A stretch of DNA of 40,798 nucleotides from a virus. Taxonomy: Duplodnaviria > Heunggongvirae > Uroviricota > Caudoviricetes. A program made the position numbers. The stretch lies in IMG/VR virus record IMGVR_UViG_2634166457_000005, positions 1 to 40,798 of that record; one strand, written 5' to 3'. Below are positions 35,501 through 38,500 of the stretch, piece by piece; position 1 is the first letter of the stretch; every line of letters begins with the position of its first letter.

Positions 35501-38500
35501 TGTCTCCCCGGTTGTTGAAGGAAAAGTGCTGCGTCATCGCGGTGGTGAAACCCGCGTGTTACGTCCGGGCTACGTCAAGCCGAAACACGAATTTAATTAC
35601 CAGCAGGCGGTTGAGCGTCTTCCCGGTGAAGATCCGGCTCAACTGAACGACCCGGCCTACCGTCGTCTGCGTATCATCACCGATAACCTCAAACAGGAAG
35701 AGCATGCCATTGTCCAGGTGGAAGAAATGCAGGCGGTGAATGCCGTGCTGTATGGCAAATACACCATGGAAGGGGATCAGTTTGATACTGTCGAGGTGGA
35801 TTTTGGACGCTCTGAAGGAAATAACATTGAGCAGGCCGACGGTAAAAAATGGTCTGAGCAGGACCGTGATACGTTTGATCCGACGCATGATATTGACCTC
35901 TACTGCGATCAGGCCAGCGGTCTTGTGAATATTGCCATTATGGACGGTACTGTCTGGCGTCTGCTGAATGGTTTTAAGCTGTTCCGCGAAAAACTGGATA
36001 CCCGTCGCGGCTCAAATTCACAACTCGAAACGGCAGTGAAAGACCTGGGGGCGGTGGTGTCTTTCAAAGGGTATTACGGCGATCTGGCCATTGTGGTGGC
36101 GAAAACGTCTTATGTGGCAGAGGACGGTACCGAAAAACGTTATCTGCCGGAGGGCACGCTGGTCCTGGGAAATACGGCTGCAGATGGGATCCGTTGTTAC
36201 GGTGCCATTCAGGATGCGCAGGCGTTGTCCGAAGGTGTGGTGGCTTCTTCCCGTTACCCGAAACACTGGCTGACCGTGGGCGATCCGGCCCGTGAATTTA
36301 CCATGACGCAGTCCGCACCGCTGATGGTGCTGCCGGATCCGGATGAGTTTGTGGTGGTGCAGGTGAAATAATCCGTGAGCGGGGGCGAAATGCCCCCGTG
36401 TCTTTTTTCACAGGGGGCTGATATGGCAACAAAAGAAGAAAATCAGAAACGTCTTCGTCAACTGGCTGGCCTGCTGGGGCGCGAGGCGGATATGTCGGGG
36501 AGTGCTGCGGATATTGCGCAACGTGTGTCTGAGTGGGAAGAGGAGCTTGCTGCTTCCCGGGAGGGCATTATGCCTGGTGATGAGAGCGGGCCTGAGCAAA
36601 AATCACACAGACGATGGTGAGCAGTTGCACAACACTGATGCTACGGATGATGTTAAAGCGGTCCGTGTGCGGAAATGCCTGCATGTGATGGGGTATTGCC
36701 CGGAGACAGGCCGTCCCGTTGAACTGACGTACCGGGGCATGCGTGTTCTGGTGCCATCACCACTGGCGACAGCCATGATACAGCACGGAACGGCTGAGCA
36801 TGCGTGATTTTCAGAATGCCTTTGATGCTGCCCTTGCCGGGGTGGACAGCACGATTGTTGAAGTGATGGGGCTCTGTGCGCAGTTCACCTCGGGGGCACA
36901 GTGTGGCAGCGAAGTTCAGGGGGTTTTTGACGATCCGGAGTCGCTGGGGTTTGCCGGTGGCGGGGTCCGTATTGAAGGAAGCTGCCCGTCATTATTTGTA
37001 CGGACGGATACGGTTCGTGCTGTGCGGCGTGGTGACACGCTGACCATTAATGGTGAGACATTCTGGGTGGATCGTGTTTCTCCGGATGACGGGGGCAGTT
37101 GTTATCTCTGGCTCAACCGTGGGCAACCACCGGCAGTTAACCGGCGACGATAAACGCAGGGTGAATTATGGCGATAAAAGGGCTTGATCAGGCGATTGAA
37201 AATCTGAGCCGGGTTCGTAAAAACGCCATTCCGGCGGCTTCAGCAATGGCCATTAACCGCGTGGCCACAACGGCGATTAATCAGTCTTCATCACAGGTTG
37301 CCCGGGAGACAAAGGTTCGCCGGAAACTGGTTAAGGAACGGTCCAGACTGAAACGGGCGACGGTCAGAAATCCGAATGCCAGAATTATCGTTAACCGCGG
37401 TGATCTCCCTGTGATTAAGCTGGGGATCAGGATGCCGGGGCGTCGCCCGAACAGCATACTTAAAGCCGGTCAGCATCGGTATCAGCGGGCATTTATTCAG
37501 CGATTAAAAAATGGTCGCTGGCATGTCATGCAGCGTGTGGCCGGGAAAAACCGTTACCCCATTGATGTGGTGAAAATCCCGATGGCGGCCCCACTGAAAC
37601 AGGCATTTGATGAGAATGTTGACCGTATCCGGCGTGAACGCCTGCCTAAAGAACTGGCATCCGCGCTGAAACAACAACTGAGGATTGCAATAAAACGATG
37701 AAACACACTGACATTCGTGCCGCAGTGCTGGATGCACTCGAGCAGCATGAACACGGGGCGACGCTGTTTGATGGTCGCCCCGTTGTTTTTGACGAAGAGG
37801 ATTTTCCTGCGATCGCGGTTTATCTGACGGATGCAGAGTATACCGGTGAAGAGCTGGATGCAGATACCTGGCGGGCCACGCTGCATATTGAGGTGTTTTT
37901 ACCGGCACAGGTACCGGATTCAGAGCTTGATCAGTGGATGGAAAGCCGGATTTACCCGGCGATGACCGCGATCCCGGCACTGGCAGGACTGATTACCACG
38001 ATGGTTACGCAGGGCTATGAGTATCGTCGTGATGACGATATGGCGTTATGGAGTTCTGCAGATCTGACTTATTCCATTACATACGAGATGTGAGGACGAT
38101 ATGGCAACACCAAATCCCCTTGAGCCGGTAAAAGGTGCCGGTACCACTCTGTGGGTTTACAACGGCAAGGGTGATGCTTATGCAAACCCGTTGTCAGACG
38201 ATGACTGGCAGCGACTGGCTAAGGTGAAGGATCTGACGCCGGGCGAGATGACGGCAGAATCCTACGATGATAACTACCTGGATGATGAAGACGCGGACTG
38301 GACCGCGACCGGGCAGGGGCAGAAATCTGCAGGTGATACCAGTTTTACGCTGGCCTGGAAACCGGGAGAGGAAGGCCAGAAAGGGCTTATAGGCTGGTTT
38401 GAAAGCGGCGATGTCCGGGCCTATAAAATCCGTTTTCCGAATGGCACGGTGGATGTGTTTCGTGGCTGGGTCAGCAGTATCGGTAAGGCCGTGACGGCGA

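What the first reader, a model, noticed from the sequence alone, without database searches (positions are those of the whole stretch)
36423..36807. FI packaging gene interrupted by a frameshift at a homopolymeric A run
The FI-like N-terminal and C-terminal segments lie in frames 0 and +1, switching near CAAAAATC (about 36590-36600). Together with the O frameshift this suggests decay toward a cryptic prophage; alternatively a sequencing error in a homopolymer.
Basis: seen in the sequence. Interest (0 to 1): 0.4.

Follow-up and report, generated by a model that had tools for sequence, protein, structure and literature searches.

The report
One extra A splits prophage FI
The lambda-type packaging gene FI in this E. 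coli prophage is broken by one extra A found in no other genome, and it is more likely a base-calling error in a draft assembly than real gene decay; either way it is ordinary.

Summary
FI starts at 36423, reads 59 correct codons, then runs out of frame to a stop at 36618-36620. The C-terminal 67 codons continue in the +1 frame to 36807. The cause is one extra A: CAAAAAT (A5, 36598-36602) where relatives have CAAAAT. Deleting one A gives a 384-nt gene identical in DNA to the intact 127-aa FI of E. coli O145 RM9872.

The extra A is private. None of 979 places in 808 complete E. coli genomes has it. All 22 fetched loci with this allele, including near-identical sister prophages, have A4. The truncated product is on record only for the source assembly.

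The window is one contig of draft scaffold KQ241474.1 (GCA_001186315.2). I found no private substitution wherever a close sister could be compared. It does have two private one-base homopolymer changes. The second one (T3, 40756) is contradicted by the overlapping next contig, which reads T4. Two more T-run losses lie near the scaffold end.

I put a homopolymer miscall at about 0.7 and a real, very recent inactivating mutation at about 0.27. Programmed recoding is not supported.

The "decaying prophage" idea has independent support only from the split O gene, which is shared by sister assemblies and is real. Interest is low.

The parts
36423..36620 (+). FI 5' part in frame 0: 59 authentic codons (helical N-terminal domain plus linker), then 6 out-of-frame codons (KSHRRW) and a TGA stop
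   Evidence: ORF list and sequence. Pfam PF14000 positions 1-44, E=1.3e-11. Residues 1-59 are identical to the intact FI.
36598..36602 (+). A5 run carrying the one-base insertion (relatives have A4); this is the frameshift site
   Evidence: Alignment to O145 RM9872 and phage PhiR12_1. 0 of 979 places in complete E. coli genomes match the A5 form. All 22 fetched loci other than copies of the source scaffold have A4.
36601..36807 (+). FI 3' part in the +1 frame: 68 codons NHTDDGEQ...GTAEHA plus stop, corresponding to the head-binding C-terminal domain
   Evidence: Translation and alignment. It aligns with the part of lambda gpFI solved as PDB 2LSM, residues 72-132.
40756..40758 (+). T3 run in tape-measure gene H, 42 nt before the scaffold gap: a second private homopolymer change on the same contig, read as T4 by the overlapping next contig and by all sisters
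   Evidence: The contig ends overlap 208/209 nt and differ only at this run. Sisters L028, L029 and L005 have T4.
36800..37153 (+). FII (head-tail joining protein), intact; its start overlaps the FI stop as in relatives
   Evidence: ORF list. Pfam PF05354 in the gene table.
35343..36371 (+). E (major capsid protein), intact, immediately upstream of FI
   Evidence: ORF list. PF03864.

Best explanation
The split FI gene is most likely an assembly or base-calling artefact. One A too many was called in a four-A run (A4 read as A5 at 36598-36602) in a draft, gap-containing scaffold whose chemistry or consensus is prone to homopolymer-length errors. On this reading the strain's real gene is the ordinary intact 127-aa FI, a lambda/phage-21-type DNA-packaging chaperone with a helical N-terminal domain and a capsid-binding C-terminal domain, like that of every related prophage.

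Shown: the insertion, its uniqueness, the lack of any private substitution found on this genome's branch, and an internal homopolymer contradiction on the same contig.

Inferred: that the FI call is an error of the same class. No reads were available.
For: 1. Removing one A gives a gene identical at every one of 384 nt to the intact FI of O145 RM9872.

2. The A5 form is absent everywhere else.
- A 70-nt probe finds 979 places in 808 complete E. coli genomes, and the best are all 69/70.
- The exact 46-mer is absent from 185,579 species-representative genomes.
- The 65-aa product is on record only for GCA_001186315.2.
- 22 of 22 other fetched loci have A4 and a 127-aa FI.

3. Sister prophages of the same lineage all have A4. 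These are GCA_902842135.1, GCA_051592065.1, SRR28921530 and SRR024330, which share the rare 112-aa D allele. They differ from the window over 12.1-12.8 kb by only 1-2 substitutions.

4. At the three informative substitution sites versus sisters (5230, 13408, 33817) the window has the outgroup state, so I found no private substitution on its own branch. A fourth difference, 28120, is a synonymous change about 100 nt from the start of one sister contig, and another contig of that same assembly reads C like the window. In the 20748-22048 part of a recombined tract only a divergent comparator was available. Against this background the window has two private one-base homopolymer indels. Real evolution gives far more substitutions than indels.

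5. The second private indel (T3 at 40756) is contradicted within the assembly. The contig after the 382-N gap overlaps 208/209 nt and reads T4.

6. Past the gap, two more T-run losses (T6 to T5, T4 to T3) frameshift gene L near the scaffold end.

7. Both N gaps flanking the window are spurious, because the contig ends overlap. This shows a low-finish draft.
Against: - The other demonstrable homopolymer errors lie within about 170 nt of contig ends, where coverage is low. FI is 4.2 kb from the nearest end.
- Elsewhere in the interior of this 40.8-kb contig, none of the other roughly 630 runs of 4 or more bases differs from the sisters. The interior consensus is therefore good.
- The FI change is an over-call, while the three end errors are under-calls.
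- Real frameshifts and IS insertions in head genes of related prophages are common.
- This lineage already has a genuinely split O gene.
- No reads or sequencing-platform information could be obtained.
Confidence: 0.7

Rival explanations
1. This is a real, very recent inactivating mutation. Replication slippage added one A to the A4 run in this strain only, separating the N-terminal domain of FI from its capsid-binding C-terminal domain. It would leave the prophage unable to package DNA efficiently, a second lesion after the inherited split of O on the way to a cryptic prophage.
For: - The sequence as deposited shows the insertion.
- The interior of the contig otherwise has no indel relative to sisters over 40.8 kb, so the consensus is generally reliable.
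- The lineage already carries a real split O and an altered 3' end of D.
- Related prophages in other genomes show genuine lesions in B, E, FII and FI.
- gpFI is essential in vivo for lambda (review PMC13595911). The shift falls exactly at the boundary of the solved C-terminal domain.
Against: - It is private to one draft assembly.
- I found no private substitution on the same branch, against two private homopolymer indels, one of which is demonstrably wrong.
- The gene shows no other change of any kind, which would be expected to follow if it were an old pseudogene.
Confidence: 0.27
2. This is programmed recoding. FI would be made from two frames by a +1 ribosomal shift, or by loss of one A during transcription at the A run.
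For: The only support is that the shift sits in an A run, and that a low level of polymerase slippage on A runs is known in general (my own knowledge).
Against: - No relative has the two-frame arrangement. All have a single ORF with A4, so there is no conservation.
- The 0-frame context CAA AAA UCA has no stop or rare codon at the shift site. The run is only 5 nt, shorter than known transcriptional slippage sites (my own knowledge).
- By contrast, the genuine programmed site of this window, GGGAAAG at the end of G, is present at 39274-39280 as expected.
Confidence: 0.01
3. This is a consensus chimera. The strain has several lambdoid prophages with near-identical late genes, and the A5 call comes from reads of another, genuinely frameshifted copy or from a mixed pile-up.
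For: Contigs break inside H and near L, where paralogous prophages usually collapse. E. coli genomes hold up to 5 places matching this FI region.
Against: No A5 copy exists in any other genome examined. The rest of the assembly could not be inspected for a second copy.
Confidence: 0.02

Closest known systems
Intact FI (DNA-packaging protein FI, WP_000201512.1) of lambdoid prophages of E. coli O145/O121/O55 and others
   Same: Identical at all 384 nt once one A is removed. It has the same position between E and FII and the same overlap with the FII start.
   Different: The window has A5 instead of A4, giving 65-aa and roughly 68-76-aa pieces instead of 127 aa.
Lambda gpFI (NP_040588.1, 132 aa; C-terminal domain solved as PDB 2LSM)
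   Same: Same Pfam family PF14000 over the whole length for the intact allele. It has the same gene order E-FI-FII and the same two-domain layout, with the frameshift falling at the start of the region that aligns with 2LSM residues 72-132. Function is taken from the literature: a packaging chaperone bridging the prohead and the terminase-DNA complex, essential in vivo and bypassed by terminase or capsid suppressors (PMC13595911).
   Different: Only about 34% identity to lambda gpFI. The C-terminal half is too diverged for a sequence hit to 2LSM. The allele is closer to phage-21-type and PhiR12-type FI.
Homopolymer-length consensus errors in draft assemblies
   Same: A single-base length change in a mononucleotide run, private to one draft. 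It is accompanied by other run-length discrepancies at contig ends, one of which is internally contradicted.
   Different: The sequencing platform of GCA_001186315.2 could not be established. This one lies in the contig interior and is an over-call rather than an under-call.
Frameshift pseudogenes in decaying (cryptic) lambdoid prophages
   Same: A late gene is interrupted in a prophage that also has a disrupted replication gene O.
   Different: Typical decayed prophages show several lesions shared by related strains. Here the FI lesion is unshared and the rest of the late operon is full length.

Membership tests
Packaging_FI (PF14000) / lambda gpFI family | Significant match to the family profile | tested here: met
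   The N-terminal fragment scores 45.5 bits against a cutoff of 27, covering profile positions 1-44. The repaired or intact allele scores 55 bits, covering profile 1-130 of 131.
Packaging_FI (PF14000) / lambda gpFI family | Gene position between the major capsid gene E and the head-tail joining gene FII | tested here: met
   E is at 35343-36371, FI at 36423-36807 and FII at 36800-37153. The order is the same in lambda.
Packaging_FI (PF14000) / lambda gpFI family | A single polypeptide joining the N-terminal domain and the capsid-binding C-terminal domain | tested here: not met
   As deposited, the two domains are in different frames. The feature is met after removal of one A.
Packaging_FI (PF14000) / lambda gpFI family | Binding to gpE and stimulation of packaging | not testable with these tools
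   This needs biochemistry or genetics.
Sequencing or assembly artefact (homopolymer miscall) | The change is a length change of a mononucleotide run and nothing else | tested here: met
   A4 versus A5, with 484/484 other positions identical.
Sequencing or assembly artefact (homopolymer miscall) | Not reproduced in independent assemblies of the closest relatives | tested here: met
   Sisters L028, L029, L030, L031 and L011 all have A4. 0 of 979 places in complete genomes have A5.
Sequencing or assembly artefact (homopolymer miscall) | The same assembly shows other demonstrable homopolymer errors | tested here: met
   T3 versus T4 between overlapping contig ends. T6 to T5 and T4 to T3 near the scaffold end.
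Sequencing or assembly artefact (homopolymer miscall) | Reads of the strain disagree with the consensus | not testable with these tools
   No reads were available, and no Logan assembly of the same isolate was identified.
Programmed frameshift or transcriptional slippage site | The two-frame arrangement and slippery motif are conserved among homologues | tested here: not met
   All homologues are single ORFs with A4.
Cryptic (decaying) prophage | Multiple inactivating lesions in essential phage genes that are inherited by related strains | tested here: inconclusive
   The O split is inherited. The FI lesion is private and doubtful. int, xis, cI, P, Q, the lysis genes, Nu1, A, W, B, C, E, FII, Z, U, V, G and T are full length. 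The window ends inside H, so the tail end of the prophage is unseen.

The most novel reading that the evidence does not exclude
The extra A is real, and the two FI domains are made as separate polypeptides in a prophage lineage whose O protein is also naturally split into two translationally coupled ORFs (GTGA overlap at 18505-18508). That prophage is 100% identical over 10.8 kb to a contig from a read set (SRR024322) in which the source's YfaA allele was not found. This may mean a different host, although incomplete coverage of that run is not excluded. If so, it would be a still-mobile phage that tolerates domain-split O, and in this strain domain-split FI.
Probability: 0.03. Interest if true: 0.4.

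Novelty: not a real feature. Interest (0 to 1): 0.07.

Why it matters
It matters little biologically. If it is an artefact, it is a reminder that single-base homopolymer frameshifts in draft assemblies should not be scored as pseudogenes or as prophage decay without read support. If it is real, it is one more strain-specific frameshift pseudogene in a lambdoid prophage and would make that prophage packaging-defective. The useful by-product is a practical test that needs no reads. Compare the region with same-lineage sister assemblies, polarise the differences with an outgroup, and ask whether the genome's own branch carries homopolymer indels but no substitutions.

Tried and rejected
- **Deletion in an A6 run.** I first assumed a deletion, but the frame arithmetic and the alignment show a +1 insertion, A4 to A5.
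- **Source genome.** I looked for it in complete E. coli RefSeq genomes, INPHARED phages and GTDB representatives, and it was absent. Exact-protein look-up identified it as GCA_001186315.2 scaffold KQ241474.1.
- **Platform or strain information.** Paper searches on six related accessions found nothing.
- **Reaching the FI region of the read set closest to the window (SRR024322).** I tried neighbouring proteins. Terminase A and protease C are too widespread (771 and 2,442 blocks), so the look-ups returned only long unrelated genomes.
- **Whether SRR024322, SRR024330 or SRR077219 are the source's own reads.** The source's YfaA allele is not found in them, so they probably are not. They cannot serve as read-level evidence.
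- **Other one-base homopolymer differences versus more distant relatives.** The differences at 11695, 13621, 13678, 23349 and 37164 looked like more errors. Sisters with no indel across those positions share them, so they are real variants.
- **The 49-nt D deletion and the O split.** They looked like possible assembly collapses, but both recur in independent assemblies.
- **Sequence search of the intact FI against the PDB.** It gave no hit, so I mapped the domain boundary through lambda gpFI instead.
- **Popovic et al. 2012.** The paper is not held.

Full report
**What is there**

The region is the head-gene block of a lambda-like prophage. The genes in order are:
- C/Nu3 protease at 33445-34950
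- D at 34987-35325
- E at 35343-36371
- FI at 36423-36807
- FII at 36800-37153
- then Z, U, V, G, T and H

FI begins with ATG at 36423. Frame 0 gives MATKEENQ...GDESGPEQ, which is 59 residues, followed by KSHRRW and a TGA at 36618-36620. The remainder, NHTDDGEQLHNTDATDD...IQHGTAEHA, is in the +1 frame and ends at 36807. The 65-aa piece matches Pfam Packaging_FI positions 1-44 (E=1.3e-11). The intact relative matches the whole profile.

**Nature of the lesion**

The closest relatives cover the 485-nt query with 484 nt at 99.8% identity. The alignment shows that the only difference is one extra A: the window has C-AAAAA-T at 36597-36603 and relatives have C-AAAA-T. It is therefore an insertion in an A4 run. 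Deleting one A in silico yields a 384-nt ORF identical in DNA and protein to FI of E. coli O145 RM9872 (WP_000201512.1, 127 aa).

**How widespread is the A5 form**

- A 70-nt probe centred on the run finds 979 places in 808 of 5,426 complete E. coli genomes. None reaches 99% identity, and the best are all 69/70.
- The exact 46-mer is absent from one genome per species of GTDB.
- The exact 65-aa product is on record only for NCBI assembly GCA_001186315.2, scaffold KQ241474.1.

**Where the window comes from**

The window is exactly one contig of that draft scaffold, and the host is E. coli.
- It starts right after a 130-N gap inside the host gene yfaL and ends right before a 382-N gap inside the tape-measure gene H.
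- Both gaps are spurious. The contig ends overlap by 19 nt upstream and by 208/209 nt downstream.
- gyrA is up to 99.3% identical to complete E. coli genomes.
- The prophage sits next to yfaA/yfaT.

**Sister assemblies and polarity of the differences**

Exact-protein look-ups with two rare alleles of this prophage and with the host YfaA allele found same-lineage relatives: GCA_902842135.1, GCA_051592065.1, GCA_018037885.1, SRR28921530, SRR024330, SRR024322 and SRR077219. Together they cover nearly the entire window. The comparisons were:

| Window span | Compared with | Differences |
|---|---|---|
| 1-12301 | GCA_902842135.1 | 1 substitution, 0 indels |
| 9906-20747 | SRR024322 | 100.000% identical |
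| 12659-28137 | GCA_902842135.1 | 0 indels; substitutions clustered in a recombined tract, 18989-22048 |
| 28014-40798 | GCA_902842135.1 and GCA_051592065.1 | 1-2 substitutions plus two one-base indels: +A at 36598 and -T at 40756 |

At the three informative substitution sites (5230, 13408, 33817) the window has the outgroup state, so those changes happened on the sisters' side. A fourth difference, at 28120, is synonymous and lies about 100 nt from the start of one sister contig. Another contig of that same assembly reads C like the window, so it carries no weight. For 20748-22048, only the divergent comparator was available. With those limits, the window's own branch shows no private substitution but two private homopolymer-length changes.

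**Internal evidence of homopolymer miscalls**

The second private change (T3 at 40756-40758, a frameshift in H 42 nt before the gap) is contradicted by the same assembly. The contig on the other side of the gap repeats the last 209 nt and reads T4, as do all sisters. Beyond the gap, gene L is frameshifted by T6 to T5 and again by T4 to T3 within about 170 nt of the scaffold end, and the last ~60 nt are garbled. This assembly therefore demonstrably contains homopolymer-length errors, at least at contig ends.

**Weighing error against real mutation**

For a real event, a branch with no substitution found would have to carry an indel. Indels are roughly ten times rarer than substitutions in E. 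coli (my own knowledge of mutation-accumulation studies). That gives a probability of roughly 0.1.

For an error, a draft with shown run-length miscalls would need one interior error among about 630 runs of 4 or more bases in 40.8 kb. I guess this at a few tenths.

Against the error reading, the interior of the contig is otherwise clean, FI lies 4.2 kb from a contig end, and the change is an over-call while the end errors are under-calls. I settle on about 0.7 for artefact and 0.27 for a real private mutation. Only reads or resequencing can decide.

**If it is real**

[quoted passage not shown] It is essential in vivo, stimulates packaging in vitro about 200-fold, and is bypassed by suppressors in the terminase and capsid genes (review PMC13595911). 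It has a helical N-terminal domain and a capsid-binding C-terminal domain (Popovic et al. 2012, from my own knowledge; the paper was not held). The solved C-terminal domain, PDB 2LSM, covers lambda residues 72-132.

In the alignment, the frameshift falls at the start of the corresponding region. It would therefore uncouple the two domains and should abolish the bridging function. The +1-frame piece has only a poorly placed GGAGG 12-15 nt upstream of GTG 36577 and ATG 36580, so independent expression is doubtful.

**Programmed recoding**

This is not supported. No homologue has the two-frame layout. The context CAA AAA UCA has no stop or pause element, and an A5 run is short for transcriptional slippage. 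The window's genuine programmed site, GGGAAAG at 39274-39280 at the end of G, is present as in lambda.

**The "decay" context**

The O gene is indeed split, into 18005-18508 (167 aa) and 18505-18876 (123 aa). The cause is a net 28-nt loss that leaves three iterons at about 18353-18410, not a homopolymer change. The same split occurs in at least 4 other samples, so it is real and inherited.

D has lost its last six codons and a downstream hairpin through a 49-nt deletion between short repeats. This too is inherited.

All other early, lysis, terminase, head and proximal tail genes are full length. So the lineage has one genuine disruptive lesion, in O. FI cannot be counted as a second without read support.

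**Verdict**

The finding is ordinary either way, so interest is low.

Noticed in passing
window 18005-18876 (iterons about 18353-18410): Replication gene O is split into a 167-aa N-terminal ORF and a 123-aa C-terminal ORF with a GTGA start/stop overlap at 18505-18508. The cause is a net 28-nt loss leaving three ori iterons. The identical split occurs in GCA_902842135.1, GCA_051592065.1, SRR024322 and SRR077219, so it is a real inherited allele. Whether a two-piece O still supports replication is unknown.
   Followed up: partly
window 35303-35325 (D 3' end): A 49-nt deletion between short CCTGA repeats replaces the last six codons of the head decoration gene D (SHAALP) by TDF. It also removes the hairpin GGCCACCGCGGTGGCC between D and E. 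This 112-aa allele is found in 8 contigs of 8 samples including the source, so it is real.
   Followed up: partly
window 40756-40798 and L003 14377-14967: The 382-N scaffold gap in tape-measure gene H is spurious. The flanking contig ends overlap 208/209 nt, differing only by T3 versus T4. H is therefore probably intact in the strain.
   Followed up: yes
L049 4309-4476 (just upstream of window position 1): The 130-N gap inside host gene yfaL is also spurious, with a 19-nt overlap of the contig ends. Sister assemblies have an intact 1252-aa YfaL.
   Followed up: yes
L027 about 18210-18480 (scaffold end, beyond the window): Tail gene L is frameshifted twice by T-run losses (T6 to T5, T4 to T3), and the last ~60 nt of the scaffold are garbled. 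These look like contig-end errors.
   Followed up: partly
window 11499-11846 (- strand), C7 run near 11695: The DUF1382 and DUF1317 genes, separate and overlapping in O55:H7 RM12579, are fused into one 115-aa ORF by a one-base difference in a C run. The fusion is shared with SRR024322 and GCA_902842135.1, so it is a real variant.
   Followed up: partly
window 33817 (protease C codon 125): The sister clade (GCA_902842135.1, GCA_051592065.1, SRR28921530, SRR024330) carries a derived D125N change in the LLDIDSPGG motif of the S49 head protease. The window keeps the common D.
   Followed up: partly
window 9906-20747 versus L036 (Logan SRR024322): A contig from an unrelated-looking read set is 100.000% identical over 10,842 nt of the prophage early region. 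The host YfaA allele of the source was not found in that read set. This may be the same prophage in another host background, which would imply recent mobility despite the split O, but incomplete coverage of that run is not excluded.
   Followed up: no
window 18989-22048: 45 substitutions against GCA_902842135.1 are confined to this P-ren-nin tract, while the flanks are identical. This looks like a recombination patch between otherwise near-identical prophages.
   Followed up: no
window 22199-23158 (- strand): An LpxR-family lipid A deacylase gene lies in the nin/Q region on the opposite strand. It is a cargo (moron) gene also present in the related O55:H7 prophage.
   Followed up: no
window 39274-39280: The GGGAAAG slippery heptamer sits just before the stop of tail chaperone gene G. 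This is the canonical programmed -1 frameshift producing G-T, and it is intact.
   Followed up: partly
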